From the human T2T-CHM13v2.0 reference genome, Homo sapiens, in NCBI RefSeq assembly GCF_009914755.1, contig NC_060929.1: a DNA stretch of 64,000 nt. The stretch is one strand, 5' to 3'. The notes under the pieces were generated by a model. The model made no database searches. It was not told the origin of the DNA and was given only the letters and a program-made list of their open reading frames with translations. Both the position numbers and the translations under genes were made by a program. This document shows, piece by piece, positions 44,845 through 50,457 of this stretch (position 1 is its first letter; the number at the start of each line of letters is the position of its first letter).

Positions 44845-44890
44845 ATGGAAGTGAATCCCCCTAAACAGGAGCACCTGCTGGCGCTAAAAG
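44845..44890 (+). CDS. TRAPPC13: TRAPPC13 exon 1 coding part (MEVNPPKQEHLLALK+G)
   Basis: Strong Kozak AAAATGG; donor AAG|GTAAAC at 44891; 46 nt. Confidence 0.95.
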
Positions 44891-46240
44891 GTAAACTTTT
44901 GCGAACCTGATTCCCCCTTTTCTGTTTCCTTGCATTCCCTACTTATCGAAGCCTTTGCCATGTAGGCCTCATCCTTCTTAAACACTCAGTGCTCGCCCTC
45001 CTGCTCTGTCCTTTGCCGCCAAGCGGGAGGAAGCGATTTCTCCTGGATGCTTTTTAGGTTTATGGGCCCCTTTCTAGAACGAAATAGATACCTGGTAAAT
45101 CGTTCTTTCTGATCTGTGCTGCTTCAGTCACGAGATTTTAGCCGCAGAAGCTGACGTCCCGCTCCTACCGTGGAGATCTCTGTGAATTACAGCGGGCATC
45201 CAAAGTGCTTTTTCCTTCTGTCTCTTGTTTCTTCCTGTGGCACTGACGAAGTTAATCAGGCTTCAGCTTCCCCTGTAAAATTAGTATTGCATGACAGTAG
45301 TGCAGAGAATTTAGCAATACATAGTAATACAACATATAACTTAGATTTATTCAAAACAAACTGCAGTTTACTTCAAATCACTGTGTATGTGGGAAATATG
45401 TCCGAGATCTAATGTCAACTCTCATTTTTTGTACACAGCCATTTTGAGTAAGTTTGGTGATTTAATTAGATCATTATTTAGGAAAAAACAGCAGCACTTT
45501 TTTTTTTAGGACAATTTTTTTAATGCCTATTTTCTGGAAACCTTTTATTTGAAATCTTTTCAGCTTTATTTTATTTGTTTTTTACTACAACAAATGCGCT
45601 TTTTGTTTCTTGGATGCCTTAATATATGGTTAACAATGACTTCTTGAATGAGCTGAGGAAATGCTCAATAAACATTCGGGTTCAATTGAATTGCGCTTAC
45701 TTTACTTACGGCATCCATTTTGAGGAACGCCTTATCCTTCCCATTATGATGTAGTCATCAGACTTTCTAGAAGCTCATCAGTCTCATATAATGATGCCTG
45801 TGTTAGCGAGATTGTCTCTTACTGTGGAACTTTGTAATGTTTAGTGATACAGTGATGGGACCTGTAAGCTTAACCTGAGAAATGATCTAGACTAAAATGG
45901 AGATTAAAATGGATTGTTACTCGTGGAGAAGAGGGAAAAGAAGAAAAGCAACTAATTGTCGTGTTCTTTATCTCACAATCTCACTTCAAGTATGTGGAGT
46001 AAATATTAATTCTCAGAGTTTAAGTAACTTTTCCAAGATCACATAGCTAGTGATTGAGGCAGTGTTTCAACGCAAGGCCTGCCTCTCTTTCCAAGAGTCC
46101 GTGTTGCCTCCTAAAGAATGAAGCAGCATTCTCAGAGATAATTCCTCTACCAGCTACTCCGATGGGAATTTGGAACAGTTCTATTAACTGCTACGTGTGA
46201 TTTATACAAATTAGAAGCTATTAAAAACAGTTAAATTGCA

Positions 46241-47408
46241 GCCGCGCGTGGTGGCTCACCCCTGTAATCCCAGCAGTTTGGGAGGCCAAGGCGGGTGATC
46301 ACGAGGTCAAGAGATCAAGACCATCCTGGCTAACATAGTGAAACCCCGTCTCTATAAAAATACAAAAAGTTAGCCAGGCGTGGTGGCGGGCGCCTGTAGT
46401 CCCAGTTACTCAGGAGGCTGAGGCAGGAGAATGGCGTGAACCCGGGAGGCGGAGCTTGCAGTGATCCGAGATCACGCCACTGCACGCCATCCTAGGCAAC
46501 AGAGCGAGACTCCATCTCAAAAAACAAACAAACAAAAAGTTAAATTCCAGTGATACAGAGACTGCCACTGGGAATTTTTAGTTTTCTGTTATTCTTTTTT
46601 TTCCAAAACCAAGGATACCTAAGAAAGAATATTTAAGCAGCCTAAGCCAGGCGTGGTGGCTCACGCCTGTAATAGCACTTTGGGAGGCCGAGGCTGGCAG
46701 ATCACTTGAGATCAGGAGTTGACACCAGCCTGGCCAACATGGCGAAAACCCGTCTATACCAAAAATACAAAAATTAGCCAGGTGTGGTGGTGTAATCCCA
46801 GCTACTCGGGAGACTGAGGCAGGAGAACCGCTTGAACCTGGGAGGCAGAGGCTGCAGTGAGCTGAGATTGCGCCACTGCACTCCAGCCTGGGTGACAGAG
46901 TGAGACCCTGTCTCAAAAAAAAAAAGAACAATAAGCAGCCTAAACGGACAAGTGCTTCAAAATTGACTGATAGTTTCAACTTTATTAAACCTCTTTAGTA
47001 CCATCTTATAGTTAACCCATTGTTCTAGTTAATCAACAATTTTCACACATTTCAATGTGCTGATGCTGAATGCCAAATGTATTAATTTAAGTGGTCATTT
47101 AAGTTCACTTTATCTTTTAATATGTAAAATGTTAAAGATAATATCTTGTTATTCTTGGTTGGGTGAGGTGGCTGATCACTTGAGATCAGGAGTTCGAGAC
47201 CAGCCTAGCCAACATTATGAAACCCCGTCTCTACTGAAAATACAAAAATTAGCCAGGCGTGATGGTGTGCACCAGTGGTCCCAGCTACTCAGGAGGCTGA
47301 GGCACAAGAATCACTTGACCCTGGGAGGCGAAGGTTGCTGTAAGCCAAGATTGTGCCACTGCACTCTAACCTGGGCAACAAAGACTCTGTCTCAAAAAAA
47401 AAAAAAAA
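46241..47408 (+). mobile_element. Three sense Alus (AluY 46241-46538; AluS 46646-46925; truncated AluS 47158-47408)
   Basis: Alu consensus matches with A tails. Confidence 0.88.
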
Positions 47409-48229
47409 GTCATCCCTTGAGTATAACACTGATTGACTTTAGACAACAAGAGAATTTCTCAGTGCCATATTTTACAATGTGAAAGTATAAGGAACAGGGA
47501 AGAAAAACATTAGTGCATCATTAGTTCTTGAAAGTATATATGATAACATTTAGATCCATATTTAAAATATGGATGTTAAAGATCACAATTATTTATGAAT
47601 TTGAGAGTTGTCAGATCTGTTAGTGGGCAGTATCAGTAGGTAAAAATAATGAAATTATTTCTTCTAACTCTTCAGAATCAGACAGTGATTCTATTGTGAA
47701 ATGATGACAAGAATCCATACTCATGGTTATCCTAGCAGTGGGAGAACCCTCATCAAGTAATTCTCTAATGATTTTTGGGGAGAAGGGATTCAACTTATTT
47801 TTTTCTGCTGTTGTTAGGATGTGAAAAAGTCTGTTTTATGGCTCTTACAGCTTTGGGCCTGATTAGCAAGCCTAACTTGCAGATATTGGAAGGCTCCATT
47901 CTTGAGCCTATGCACCATATGCTGGAATTTATTATCAGTGACTTAATTTGGGGCAACTTGAGGACTTCTGTGCTCTAAGAGAAAAAAATAGGAGTCTAGA
48001 CTTCTTGTTCTCTTCCAAACTGGAATTCAAAAGCCATGGTATTGGGGTCTCCATACTGTTTAATTGCCTGGATTATGAGGAGAAGACAGTGTCACAAAAC
48101 TGGTTCTTAGCCTGGTTAAACCATATTAGCAAAGTTAAACCATATTAATGGTTTTAGTTTTTACTACAGAGAATGACGTGAAATCATCAAATATTCTATC
48201 TATATATTTGTTTGGTGGAATCCATATAA

Positions 48230-48796: not shown

Positions 48797-49355
48797 ATTA
48801 GAATTTACAGTGATTTCATTGTCCTCAATTTAGTTGCCTCAAATTTTTAAATATTACATTTTTTGTTAATTCATATGAAAACAATATTTTAAGAATCATT
48901 CATTTACTCTTTGTTTCTGCTAAAGTTTTAAGACTATTATTACTTAATATATTAATATCGATACTTCCAAGTCCTTTATATCTATTGAGTTAAACATGTT
49001 GACTACTAGCATTTTTAGGCAGGAAGTGATTTTATAGGGCATCTAGTTCAGATCCCTTATTTTGGTAAGAGAAAGAATTTTCAGGTTTGTAGATTACATT
49101 CACATTTACCAATAGCACTTTGGTAAAATACCACATTGGGATTGGTTTTTGGTTTTTGTTTTTCCTTTTCTCCCTGCCTGTTGGTAGGCAGGGTATCCCT
49201 ACCATATCTTATTCTTTGCAATACTTCTACTTTAGGTCCTGTTTCCCTCTGATTTGGCAAGAGAGACAATCTTGCAATAATAAATTAACATTCTAGCTCT
49301 GAGGAGTTCAACTAAGAAATTTTCTCATCACTAAGAGTAACTGGATTACTGCAGA

Positions 49356-50108
49356 ATGACTACAGAAGTAATATTACATTATCGACCATGTGAGAGTGAT
49401 CCCACACAACTGCCAAAAATTGCAGAAAAAGCAATTCAAGACTTTCCTACTCGTCCGCTATCAAGATTTATACCTTGGTTTCCATATGATGGGTCCAAGC
49501 TTCCACTCAGACCTAAAAGATCACCACCTGTGATTTCTGAAGAGGCAGCTGAAGATGTGAAACAGTACTTAACCATTTCAGAACATGATGCTAAGTCACA
49601 CAGTTATGATTGCACAGTAGATCTATTGGAGTTTCAACCTAGCTTGAAAAAGCAGCATTTAACCTGGTCACACACACTGAAGGAACAGACTAATTCTGGA
49701 AATCTGGGTAAACAATCAGAAAAGGGAAAACAGCACAAGAGGAGATCTTGGAGTATTTCCCTTCCCAGCAATAATTGTACTAAAAACGTTTCTCCTTTGT
49801 CTAAAAAATTGCAAGATAGTTTAAAGGCACTAAATTTACACTCACTTTATAGAGCAAGATGGACAATAGAACACACTATTTGTAACAGCCAAACTCTGGA
49901 AGACATTTGGACAAAACTCAATCAAATTATTAGGCACAATGAACTTCCATCTTGTAATGCTACAATTCAGAGGCATTTAGGCCAAATATGGGTGTTCTGT
50001 GATATTATGTATTGTGAATATGTGGGAAGTCTTCTTAAAGGAAGGTTAGCTCTTACTGGAAAAATTAATTTATTTGTGCATAAATATGGTGTTATTTTTA
50101 GTATGTAA
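49356..50108 (+). CDS. SHLD3: Shieldin complex subunit 3 (RINN1), intronless 250-aa CDS nested in TRAPPC13 intron 1
   Basis: Longest ORF in the window, not repeat-derived. N-terminus MTTEVILHYRP...FIPWFP...LPLRPKRSPP (REV7-binding region) recognised. Acceptor at 49235/49236 and downstream AATAAA 50452-50457. Confidence 0.96.
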   Translation: MTTEVILHYRPCESDPTQLPKIAEKAIQDFPTRPLSRFIPWFPYDGSKLPLRPKRSPPVISEEAAEDVKQYLTISEHDAKSHSYDCTVDLLEFQPSLKKQHLTWSHTLKEQTNSGNLGKQSEKGKQHKRRSWSISLPSNNCTKNVSPLSKKLQDSLKALNLHSLYRARWTIEHTICNSQTLEDIWTKLNQIIRHNELPSCNATIQRHLGQIWVFCDIMYCEYVGSLLKGRLALTGKINLFVHKYGVIFSM

Positions 50109-50451
50109 TGAATTTCACTGATTGTCAAAAAGAATATTCTGAATGAAATGAATATGGATTGAAATAGATAAAATAATTTTTACAGGTTTTAAAATTTTTA
50201 ATGACTTTTTAGAATTCCTAGGCTTGTCAATTAAGTCAAGAAATTGCTGAGTTCTACTTATTGGCAGCCTTCTTTTAAATGTGATAAATTATTGTTTACA
50301 CTGAATTTGAAGGTAAAAATGTTCTGTTCCTTTTGTTACAAACTGTGATTGAATTAGTCATGAATTAAGTTGTATAGTTTGGATTTTGGTTAATCTCTAA
50401 AATCTAATTTTACTGTATTTTTTTCCTTACCTCAAGTGTAATTTTTTAAAA

Positions 50452-50457
50452 AATAAA
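50452..50457 (+). terminator. SHLD3: Candidate intronic polyA signal for SHLD3
   Basis: AATAAA ~340 nt after the stop; variants AATACA (~50675) and ATTAAA (50809-50814) lie further downstream. Confidence 0.55.

What the first reader, a model, noticed from the sequence alone, without database searches (positions are those of the whole stretch)
44845..50457. One first exon, two unrelated proteins: SHLD3 is an intronless ORF nested in TRAPPC13 intron 1
Seen: a 250-aa non-repeat ORF with its own splice acceptor (49236) and candidate polyA signal sits 4.3 kb inside the 10.2-kb first intron of a trafficking gene, on the same strand, with no CpG island of its own. Known: this is SHLD3, which links RIF1/53BP1 to REV7-SHLD2-SHLD1 in double-strand-break end protection, so the gene is not new. 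Inference: the donor at 44891 chooses between acceptor 49236 (plus intronic polyadenylation) and acceptor 55064, so SHLD3 and TRAPPC13 mRNAs would be mutually exclusive outputs of one pre-mRNA.
Basis: partly seen in the sequence, partly recalled or inferred. Interest (0 to 1): 0.85.

Follow-up and report, generated by a model that had tools for sequence, protein, structure and literature searches.

The report
SHLD3 shares TRAPPC13's first exon

Summary
Exon 1 (44811-44890) carries the TRAPPC13 ATG (44845) and ends at an AAG|GTAAAC donor. A normal acceptor sits at 49236. A 250-aa ORF (49356-50108) matches solved SHLD3 chains. The only canonical AATAAA in the 3'UTR is at 50452, and the TRAPPC13 exon 2 acceptor is at 55064. 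RefSeq already annotates both genes with the same exon 1, so the architecture is known.

I add three points.
1. In the SHLD3 splice form, the TRAPPC13 start codon (strong context) opens a 20-codon uORF. It ends 103 nt before the SHLD3 ATG, so SHLD3 probably needs reinitiation or leaky scanning. My searches found nothing in print on this.
2. A published 3'-seq atlas (Singh 2018) lists a "TRAPPC13" intron-1 poly(A) site retaining exactly the 46 coding nt of exon 1. Its usage was 0.20 versus 0.42 in two B-cell populations. It is probably the SHLD3 mRNA 3' end under another name, but I could not lift the coordinate over.
3. The closest precedent is the ChAT/VAChT cholinergic gene locus.

Mutual exclusivity follows logically if SHLD3 transcripts start at exon 1. 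A private TSS was not excluded. Interest is moderate to low.

The parts
43974..44113 (-). TRIM23 exon 1 (selected transcript). It is the divergent partner of the shared promoter; its TSS lies 698 nt from the SHLD3/TRAPPC13 TSS.
   Evidence: Hub RefSeq table. The GC/CpG peak of the region lies here (GC 0.60-0.65, o/e 0.69-0.78).
44114..44810 (.). Bidirectional, TATA-less, moderately CpG-rich promoter interval between the TRIM23 TSS and the SHLD3/TRAPPC13 TSS.
   Evidence: Sequence; CpG profile; RefSeq enhancer features 43783-44112 and 44243-44322 (hub table).
44811..44890 (+). Shared first exon of SHLD3 and TRAPPC13.
   Evidence: Hub RefSeq table; sequence.
44845..44847 (+). TRAPPC13 start codon. 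In the SHLD3 splice form it is the start of a 20-codon uORF. Context: A at -3, G at +4.
44891..44896 (+). The single 5' splice site (AAG|GTAAAC) used by both mRNAs.
   Evidence: 6 of 9 matches to the consensus 9-mer, the same as two other annotated donors in the window.
49216..49235 (+). Polypyrimidine tract and AG of the SHLD3 acceptor.
   Evidence: pyrimidine fraction 0.72 at -20..-3, which is the median of the 18 annotated acceptors scored (range 0.44-0.89). A branch-point-like CTTAT sits at -25.
49236..50696 (+). SHLD3 exon 2 (1461 nt). It is an alternative terminal exon inside TRAPPC13 intron 1.
   Evidence: Hub RefSeq table.
49250..49252 (+). Stop codon of the uORF. It ends 17 nt past the exon junction and 103 nt before the SHLD3 ATG.
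49356..50108 (+). SHLD3 coding sequence, 250 aa.
   Evidence: phmmer against PDB matched 7 distinct sequences, all named Shieldin complex subunit 3 (two of them SHLD2-SHLD3 chimeras); the best was 6kto_C at E 1.2e-38. 72 homologues at E<=1e-3.
50310..50318 (+). 5'-splice-site-like AAG|GTAAAA in the SHLD3 3'UTR, with its GT at 50313, 139 nt upstream of AATAAA. It could be a U1 binding site or a cryptic donor.
   Evidence: 6 of 9 matches, the same crude score as the real exon 1 donor. Its function is an inference.
50452..50457 (+). A GU/U-rich stretch follows it.
50675..50680 (+). AATACA variant hexamer, 16 nt before the RefSeq 3' end at 50696.
   Evidence: hub table.
55044..55132 (+). Acceptor (pyrimidine fraction 0.83, CAG|T) and exon 2 of TRAPPC13. 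This is the competing distal choice, 4368 nt beyond the SHLD3 3' end.

Best explanation
SHLD3 is expressed as an alternative terminal exon of the TRAPPC13 transcription unit. Transcription starts at the shared TATA-less promoter, which is divergent from TRIM23, and produces exon 1. The single donor at 44891 then has two possible fates.

- It joins the proximal acceptor at 49236, and the RNA is cleaved and polyadenylated at about 50.5-50.7 kb. This gives SHLD3 mRNA, and the polymerase never delivers TRAPPC13 exons.
- The proximal terminal exon is skipped and the donor joins 55064. This gives TRAPPC13 mRNA.

The distal acceptor is made about 4.4 kb after the SHLD3 poly(A) region. TRAPPC13 output therefore depends on inefficient recognition of the SHLD3 exon and poly(A) site.

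In the SHLD3 mRNA the TRAPPC13 AUG, in strong context, opens a 20-codon uORF that crosses the only exon junction and stops 103 nt before the SHLD3 AUG. No other AUG lies in the leader. SHLD3 protein therefore most likely arises by reinitiation, with some leaky scanning, which damps its yield.

Shown: the signals, reading frames and distances, the protein identity, and the annotation. From the literature: an intron-1 poly(A) site is used and differs between two B-cell populations. Inferred: the kinetic competition, dominance of the shared TSS, and the translational effect of the uORF.
For: - RefSeq gives both genes the identical exon 44811-44890 (hub table).
- The donor, both acceptors and the poly(A) hexamers are present and ordinary.
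- There is no CpG island and no TATA-like match upstream of 49236.
- The ORF is SHLD3. It is conserved in 72 homologues. 0 of those 72 carry the exon-1 peptide, so the SHLD3 ATG is the start. An in-frame stop lies 5 codons upstream of it.
- uORF geometry.
- Singh et al. 2018 (PMC5928244, supplementary file 1, sheet 1; passages and table rows read) list a TRAPPC13 intronic poly(A) peak. RetainedCDR is 0.036595 of 1257 nt, which equals 46 nt, exactly the coding part of exon 1. IpA TPM was 5.54 versus 46.25, 3'UTR TPM 19.37 versus 63.06, and usage 0.20 versus 0.42 (padj 0.031) in tissue versus blood naive B cells.
- Mouse Shld3 has the same layout: exon 2 'comprises its entire coding sequences' (King et al., PMC10769304, passages).
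- Krajewska 2019 (PMC6465371, supplementary file 3): C5orf44 (TRAPPC13) log2FC was -1.53 and -2.23 after the CDK12/13 inhibitor THZ531. This fits loss of the long product but is not specific to it.
Against:
- I could not lift the hg19 peak (chr5:64926494-64926529) to the window. Intron 1 holds 8 AATAAA and 6 ATTAAA on the + strand, so equating the peak with the SHLD3 3' end rests on recalled gene coordinates.
- In Singh's data both isoforms rise together, and the paper states that IpA changes are mostly not switch-like.
- In the RNA-seq table of Krajewska (file 4), the TRAPPC13 change was not significant (log2FC -0.78, padj 0.073). No SHLD3 row was found in the held files, two of which were cut when stored.
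- TRIM23 alternative transcripts start at 46919 inside the intron, so some promoter activity exists there.
- The effect of the uORF is inferred from its geometry only.
Confidence: 0.65

Rival explanations
1. SHLD3 is driven mainly by a private promoter inside TRAPPC13 intron 1, as VAChT has its own promoters inside ChAT intron 1. The exon-1-containing RefSeq model would then be a minor form, and the two genes would be largely independent.
For: The cholinergic locus uses multiple promoters, including some inside the intron (PMC3053374, passages). TRIM23 alternative first exon 45092-46919 shows that initiation occurs inside this intron, on the other strand (hub table). RefSeq has only one SHLD3 model.
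Against: The 500 nt upstream of 49236 have GC 0.31, CpG o/e 0.08 and 1 CpG, with no TATA-like match. No RefSeq regulatory feature is listed near 49 kb (hub table). A well-formed acceptor sits exactly at the exon start. The two-exon structure with a non-coding first exon is also described for mouse.
Confidence: 0.17
2. The choices are not strictly exclusive. The SHLD3 exon can also act as an internal exon, using a donor-like site in its 3'UTR (AAG|GTAAAA at 50313) spliced to 55064. This would give read-through RNAs that carry the SHLD3 ORF upstream of TRAPPC13 exons.
For: The site at 50313 scores the same as the genuine exon 1 donor on a crude 9-mer match (6 of 9), and it lies upstream of both poly(A) hexamers.
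Against: No such transcript appears in the RefSeq table. There are 32 sites of at least 6/9 in the 10.2-kb intron, so the match is unremarkable. Such RNAs would lack a usable TRAPPC13 start and would probably be degraded (inference).
Confidence: 0.06
3. The architecture is as annotated, but the uORF has no consequence. Scanning ribosomes bypass it, or reinitiation is near-complete, and SHLD3 dosage is set only by RNA processing and protein stability.
For: The uORF is short (20 codons) and the spacer is long (103 nt), which favours reinitiation (established knowledge, recalled). The leader has no unusual structure (MFE -44.2 kcal/mol, z -0.06).
Against: The uORF AUG has A at -3 and G at +4. This is the context that captures most scanning ribosomes (established knowledge, recalled). 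Reinitiation is rarely complete.
Confidence: 0.12

Closest known systems
Cholinergic gene locus (VAChT/SLC18A3 nested in ChAT intron 1)
   Same: The entire ORF of one gene lies on a single exon inside the first intron of a host gene. This 'nested gene structure' is conserved from nematode to mammals, and alternative splicing and multiple promoters generate the two mRNA sets (PMC3053374, passages). That the two genes lie on the same strand, and that some VAChT and ChAT mRNAs share the 5' R exon, is recalled and was not read here.
   Different: ChAT and VAChT act in the same pathway, whereas SHLD3 (end protection) and TRAPPC13 (trafficking) are unrelated (function names recalled or from the annotation). 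In the cholinergic locus the shared exon is non-coding (recalled). Here it carries the host's start codon and so creates a uORF. VAChT has documented internal promoters; none is evident here.
Alternative terminal exon / intronic polyadenylation choice (calcitonin/CGRP, IgM secreted vs membrane; '5' IpA' isoforms of Singh et al. 2018)
   Same: One donor, a proximal acceptor with its own poly(A) site, and a distal acceptor. Outcomes are exclusive per transcript. The TRAPPC13 intron-1 site is itself listed as an IpA event retaining under 25% of the CDS.
   Different: In the classic cases the products share an N-terminal coding part (recalled). 5' IpA isoforms are usually taken as non-coding or truncating. 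Here the IpA isoform encodes a complete, unrelated, conserved protein.
uORF-bearing mRNAs translated by reinitiation
   Same: A strong-context upstream AUG, a short uORF that ends before the main AUG, and a spacer of about 100 nt.
   Different: The uORF start is the bona fide start codon of another gene's protein, borrowed through splicing. There is a single uORF, so ATF4/GCN4-style induction under stress is not expected (inference).
Retrocopies that capture a host gene's 5' exon and promoter
   Same: An intronless coding sequence in a host intron on the same strand, spliced to the host's first exon.
   Different: No parental gene was found. DNA and protein searches of the human genome returned only the locus itself. 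Pfam gave no credible family: 0 at E<=0.01, only scattered sub-threshold rows, and no IF4E among the listed families in the scan of 51 members. The only hint is a borderline eIF4E-like fold of residues about 126-250.

Membership tests
SHLD3 (shieldin complex subunit 3) protein | Sequence identity with solved SHLD3 chains, including the REV7-binding N-terminal region | tested here: met
   phmmer against PDB matched 7 distinct sequences, all named Shieldin complex subunit 3 or SHLD2-SHLD3 chimera, covering residues 1-74. 6kto_C had E 1.2e-38. 6m7a, which matches residues 28-73, is titled a REV7-SHLD3(28-73) complex.
SHLD3 (shieldin complex subunit 3) protein | C-terminal eIF4E-like domain (claim recalled from the shieldin literature; the primary papers are not held) | tested here: inconclusive
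   The AF2 model built with 51 sequences has pLDDT about 97 for residues 150-250. Foldseek gave 0 matches at E<=1e-3, but the top rows are almost all eIF4E (best E 4.9e-3). VIA-align gave eIF4E at Z 8.2 (rmsd 2.7, 95 aligned) and Z 8.1, which is at the tool's stated noise ceiling. Pfam IF4E is not among the 25 listed families (31 were found) for the 51 members.
Alternative terminal exon / intronic polyadenylation isoform | A shared upstream exon and donor, with a proximal 3' splice site inside the intron | tested here: met
   Identical exon 1 in the RefSeq table. Donor AAG|GTAAAC; acceptor with pyrimidine fraction 0.72, the median of 18 annotated acceptors.
Alternative terminal exon / intronic polyadenylation isoform | A poly(A) signal and an observed 3' end within the intron | tested here: met
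   AATAAA at 50452 and AATACA at 50675. Singh 2018 lists a 3'-seq peak in intron 1 with retained CDS of 46 nt. The exact position in the window is not resolved because I had no liftover.
Alternative terminal exon / intronic polyadenylation isoform | SHLD3 mRNAs actually begin at exon 1 (junction 44890-49236) and are the main form | not testable with these tools
   No read-level data were available. A search for a processed pseudogene that might preserve the junction found only the locus itself.
Cholinergic-locus-type nested gene pair | The whole ORF of the guest lies on one exon within the host's first intron, on the same strand | tested here: met
Cholinergic-locus-type nested gene pair | The guest also has its own promoters in the intron | tested here: inconclusive
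   There is no CpG island or TATA-like match, but sequence alone cannot exclude a weak promoter.
Cholinergic-locus-type nested gene pair | The two products serve one pathway (co-regulation rationale) | not tested
   By annotation and recall the two functions are unrelated. No experiment or search here addressed a functional link.
uORF-controlled mRNA | An upstream AUG in good context, with a uORF that terminates before the main AUG | tested here: met
   A at -3 and G at +4; 20 codons; 103-nt spacer; the only upstream AUG in the 200-nt leader.
uORF-controlled mRNA | The uORF is translated and lowers main-ORF output | not testable with these tools
   This needs ribosome profiling or reporters.
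Host-exon-capturing retrogene | An identifiable multi-exon parental gene | tested here: not met
   Own-genome DNA and protein searches returned only the locus. There is no sequence-level family.

The most novel reading that the evidence does not exclude
Shieldin dosage may be set by two borrowed controls that nobody has examined.

1. A regulated contest between terminal-exon definition in TRAPPC13 intron 1 and splicing to TRAPPC13 exon 2. Conditions that raise intronic polyadenylation (CDK12 inhibition, reduced U1, B-cell state) would then raise SHLD3 mRNA at the expense of TRAPPC13.
2. Reinitiation after a uORF that is TRAPPC13's own start codon, which would tie SHLD3 translation to ternary-complex availability.

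If this is right, the '5' IpA isoform of TRAPPC13' in B cells is a physiological way of supplying SHLD3 for class switching. CDK12 inhibitors would also raise a PARP-inhibitor-sensitising factor while lowering HR genes.
Probability: 0.25. Interest if true: 0.6.

Novelty: already known. Interest (0 to 1): 0.33.

Why it matters
SHLD3 links RIF1/53BP1 to the rest of shieldin, and loss of shieldin confers PARP-inhibitor resistance in BRCA1-deficient cells (read in passages of held papers). If SHLD3 has no promoter of its own, four things follow.

- Promoter variants and 'SHLD3 promoter' cancer hotspots also hit TRAPPC13 and probably TRIM23. One 2026 preprint names such a hotspot and does not mention TRAPPC13 (that preprint is not among the 3 papers holding both names).
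- IpA atlases that list a 'truncated TRAPPC13' isoform are probably measuring SHLD3 mRNA.
- Deleting the Shld3 coding exon, as in the published knockout mice, removes a competing terminal exon from the Trappc13 intron if the mouse gene is nested in the same way, and could alter Trappc13 output.
- Gene-level RNA-seq counts that assign exon 1 reads to either gene are ambiguous.

None of this changes what SHLD3 is. It is a practical annotation caveat plus a testable regulatory hypothesis.

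Tried and rejected
- **Processed-pseudogene 'fossil' of the exon1-exon2 junction.** A DNA search of the window's own genome with exon 2 returned only the locus. The protein search did the same (19 candidates scored, 1 match).
- **Gene models in other species fusing the TRAPPC13 N-terminus to SHLD3.** 0 of 72 homologues carry the exon-1 peptide; the best chance match was 7 of 15, and it was internal. The 4 homologues with longer N-termini do not resemble it.
- **Cross-species check of the junction and uORF.** This was not possible because no vertebrate genomes are held. 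The only hints are the mouse two-exon statement and a chicken list placing SHLD3, TRAPPC13, TRIM23, PPWD1 and SGTB all on chromosome Z.
- **Pfam.** No family at E<=0.01. The scan of 51 members gave only scattered weak rows.
- **Single-sequence AF2.** The model was unusable, with pLDDT 40.6.
- **Retrogene-of-eIF4E origin.** Not supported at the sequence level.
- **Leader RNA structure.** Ordinary, z -0.06.
- **Rfam on 43500-56000.** 0 matches.
- **Literature searches (all 10 used).**
  - SHLD3+TRAPPC13: 3 papers, none on gene structure.
  - SHLD3+uORF: 0.
  - SHLD3+'upstream open reading': 0.
  - SHLD3+'intronic polyadenylation': 1, a genome-engineering review, listing only.
  - TRAPPC13+polyadenylation: 4 papers, 3 listed. 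I read passages of only one, which just ranks TRAPPC13 among stably expressed cattle genes.
  - SHLD3+'exon 1' and SHLD3+promoter: nothing on the shared exon in the passages read.
- **Primary shieldin papers.** Noordermeer, Gupta, Dev and Ghezraoui (all 2018) are not held. I cannot say whether they mention the shared exon.
- **Anchoring the hg19 poly(A) peak.** I looked for neighbouring genes in the same table and found 0 occurrences of TRIM23, PPWD1, SGTB, CENPK or NLN.

Full report
**1. The observation**

Reading the window confirms every coordinate.

- Exon 1 (44811-44890) contains an ATG at 44845-47 in the context gtcaaaATGg. It ends at AAG, followed by GTAAAC.
- At 49236 an exon begins after ...CTTCTACTTTAG.
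- The ORF 49356-50108 is 250 codons plus TAA.
- The TRAPPC13 exon 2 acceptor ...TTACTTCACAG|T is at 55064.
- Donor to proximal acceptor is 4345 nt, the intron is 10173 nt, and the SHLD3 exon is 1461 nt. The distal acceptor lies 4368 nt beyond the annotated SHLD3 3' end.

The ORF is not a chance feature.

- Only 2 ATG-ORFs of at least 100 aa overlap 44800-55200.
- The other one (47063-47482) overlaps a repeat with thousands of genomic copies: the first look gave 7463 candidates, of which 40 were scored.
- 0 of 300 Markov simulations of the intron reached 250 aa; the longest was 168.

The region upstream of the acceptor has no CpG island (GC 0.31, o/e 0.08, 1 CpG in 500 nt) and no TATA-like match.

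One correction is needed. RefSeq ends the exon at 50696, 16 nt past an AATACA.

**2. What it is**

The ORF is SHLD3. phmmer against PDB sequences gave 7 distinct matches, all named Shieldin complex subunit 3 or SHLD2-SHLD3 chimeras, covering residues 1-74. An exhaustive profile-free search found 72 homologues at E<=1e-3, of which 21 were at E<=1e-30. Most are about 250 aa. Pfam has no family for it.

With a 51-sequence alignment, AF2 gives a confident C-terminal domain (pLDDT about 97 for residues 150-250). Its best structural neighbours are eIF4E proteins, but only at borderline scores:
- Foldseek best E was 4.9e-3, with none at E<=1e-3.
- VIA-align gave Z 8.2 and 8.1, which is the tool's stated noise ceiling.

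The human genome holds no paralogue or processed copy.

**3. Anatomy of the two mRNAs**

The hub's RefSeq table gives SHLD3 (1 of 1 transcript) and TRAPPC13 the identical exon 1. It lists no other TRAPPC13 exons in the window.

The SHLD3 acceptor is ordinary. Its pyrimidine fraction is 0.72, the median of the 18 annotated acceptors I scored in this window (range 0.44-0.89). The TRAPPC13 acceptor is somewhat stronger, at 0.83 with CAG.

The new point concerns exon 1, which is coding for TRAPPC13 (46 nt, 15 codons plus one base). Spliced to 49236, that ATG opens a 20-codon uORF. The uORF crosses the only exon junction, stops at 49250-52 and leaves 103 nt before the SHLD3 ATG. It is the only upstream ATG in the 200-nt leader.
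- Its context (A at -3, G at +4) is the strong one (established knowledge, recalled).
- The SHLD3 ATG has A at -3 and A at +4.
- An in-frame stop lies 5 codons before the SHLD3 ATG, and the leader has no unusual structure (z -0.06).
- None of the 72 homologues begins with the exon-1 peptide.

SHLD3 protein therefore most likely depends on reinitiation or leaky scanning. The uORF stop lies downstream of the sole junction, so EJC-dependent decay is not expected (inference).

**4. Outside evidence**

Singh et al. 2018 is a 3'-seq atlas of intronic polyadenylation (PMC5928244). I read passages and rows of supplementary file 1.
- It lists a TRAPPC13 intronic peak at hg19 chr5:64926494-64926529.
- RetainedCDR is 0.036595 of TotalCDR 1257. 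That equals 46 nt, exactly the exon 1 coding part, so the site is in intron 1.
- IpA TPM was 5.54 in tissue naive B cells and 46.25 in blood naive B cells. The full-length 3'UTR TPM was 19.37 and 63.06.
- Usage was 0.20 versus 0.42, padj 0.031.

I could not lift the coordinate over, and no neighbouring gene in that table could serve as an anchor. By recalled hg19 gene coordinates the peak falls roughly 5.6-6.0 kb from the TSS. That is at the SHLD3 3' end (AATAAA is 5641 nt and the RefSeq end 5885 nt from the TSS). The intron also holds 7 other AATAAA and 6 ATTAAA, so this link is probable but not shown.

Both isoforms rise together in that comparison, as expected for one promoter, and the share shifts. 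The authors note that IpA changes are mostly not switch-like.

Krajewska et al. 2019 (PMC6465371) gives two relevant tables.
- Supplementary file 3 (header and rows read): C5orf44/TRAPPC13 falls by log2 -1.53 and -2.23 after THZ531.
- RNA-seq file 4: the change is -0.78 with padj 0.073, not significant.
- No SHLD3 row was found in the held files, two of which were cut when stored.

This is compatible with premature termination but is not specific to it.

King et al. (PMC10769304, passages) state that mouse Shld3 exon 2 'comprises its entire coding sequences'. The two-exon layout therefore exists in mouse. The paper does not mention Trappc13 (it is not among the 3 papers holding both names).

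**5. Mechanism**

The best reading has confidence 0.65. SHLD3 is an alternative terminal exon of the TRAPPC13 transcription unit, driven by the promoter it shares with TRAPPC13. That promoter is divergent from TRIM23 (TSSs 698 nt apart). Each nascent RNA gives one product or the other.

The distal acceptor appears about 4.4 kb after the SHLD3 poly(A) region, so for a minute or more (elongation rates recalled) the SHLD3 acceptor is the only partner available. TRAPPC13 expression therefore requires the proximal exon to be poorly defined. Features that fit weak definition are:
- an average acceptor;
- a RefSeq end that uses a variant hexamer;
- a 5'ss-like AAG|GTAAAA 139 nt upstream of the AATAAA. 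U1 binding there could damp that site (inference; 32 sites of equal score exist in the intron, so this is weak).

Translation is then damped by the borrowed uORF.

The rivals are:
- a private intronic promoter (0.17);
- non-exclusive read-through forms (0.06);
- the same architecture with an inconsequential uORF (0.12).

**6. Comparison with what is known**

The closest precedent is the cholinergic gene locus. There the whole VAChT ORF lies on one exon in the first intron of ChAT, conserved from nematode to mammals, with alternative splicing and multiple promoters (PMC3053374, passages).

The differences are these. The two products here are functionally unrelated. The shared exon here carries the host's start codon. 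No internal promoter is evident.

Mechanistically it belongs with alternative-terminal-exon and intronic-polyadenylation choices. Unusually, the '5' IpA' isoform here encodes a complete, conserved protein.

A retrogene-capture origin would explain the layout, but no parental gene was found.

**7. Novelty and verdict**

The architecture is already in RefSeq, so it is 'already known'. My searches found nothing in print on three points:
- the shared exon as a regulatory feature;
- the uORF;
- the identity of the TRAPPC13 IpA isoform with SHLD3 mRNA.

The four primary shieldin papers and the bioRxiv supplements could not be read and may bear on this.

The practical value is an annotation caveat covering promoter variants, IpA atlases, knockout design and read assignment, plus a testable hypothesis linking IpA-modulating drugs to shieldin dosage. 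Interest is 0.33.

Noticed in passing
window 45092-46919 (- strand) and 44569-44799 (- strand): TRIM23 alternative transcripts (hub table) start at 46919 inside SHLD3/TRAPPC13 intron 1. The first exon ends at 45092 with a GT donor on the minus strand (read). The antisense intron then spans the shared exon 1. A sense/antisense overlap therefore covers the very exon and donor at issue.
   Followed up: partly
window 44476-44528: A (CT)n run followed by 29 T and then 10 A lies in the middle of the TRIM23-TRAPPC13/SHLD3 bidirectional promoter. It is likely to be length-polymorphic.
   Followed up: no
window 44456-44477: The stretch actacaaatcccagcatgccac sits midway between the two divergent TSSs. 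It resembles, from memory only, the ACTACA-type ZNF143/THAP11/HCFC1 promoter site. I did not test it with any tool.
   Followed up: no
window 50310-50318: AAG|GTAAAA lies in the SHLD3 3'UTR, 139 nt upstream of the only AATAAA. On a crude 9-mer score it equals the true exon 1 donor (6 of 9). It could be a U1 site that damps the proximal poly(A) signal, or a cryptic donor.
   Followed up: partly
window 49279-49284: A canonical AATAAA lies 43 nt inside SHLD3 exon 2, between the uORF stop and the SHLD3 ATG. It is presumably unused, but use of it would give a very short exon1-containing RNA.
   Followed up: no
window 45092-45100: CTG|GTAAAT matches the 5'ss consensus at 7 of 9 positions. It lies 204 nt downstream of the exon 1 donor. 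On the opposite strand the same spot is the TRIM23 alternative exon boundary.
   Followed up: no
window 47063-47482: The only other ORF of at least 100 aa in the intron (139 aa) runs through a high-copy repeat. About 250 nt of it match at 84-88% identity at dozens of scored sites, and the first look gave 7463 candidates. It has no Pfam match and is a chance ORF.
   Followed up: yes
SHLD3 protein residues 126-250 (window 49731-50105): The C-terminal domain is predicted with very high confidence. Its nearest solved folds are eIF4E proteins, at borderline scores. W132 and R166 are invariant in the 51 aligned sequences, and W169, W185, W212 and C215 are nearly so. Whether these residues map to the eIF4E cap-binding residues was not examined.
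   Followed up: partly
literature: bioRxiv 10.64898/2026.07.07.736824; PMC10769304: A 2026 preprint prioritises a 'SHLD3 promoter' mutation hotspot and does not mention TRAPPC13, although the promoter is shared. The published Shld3 knockout mice delete about 2.05 kb comprising the sole coding exon. If the mouse gene is nested in the same way, that exon is also a terminal exon inside the Trappc13 intron.
   Followed up: partly
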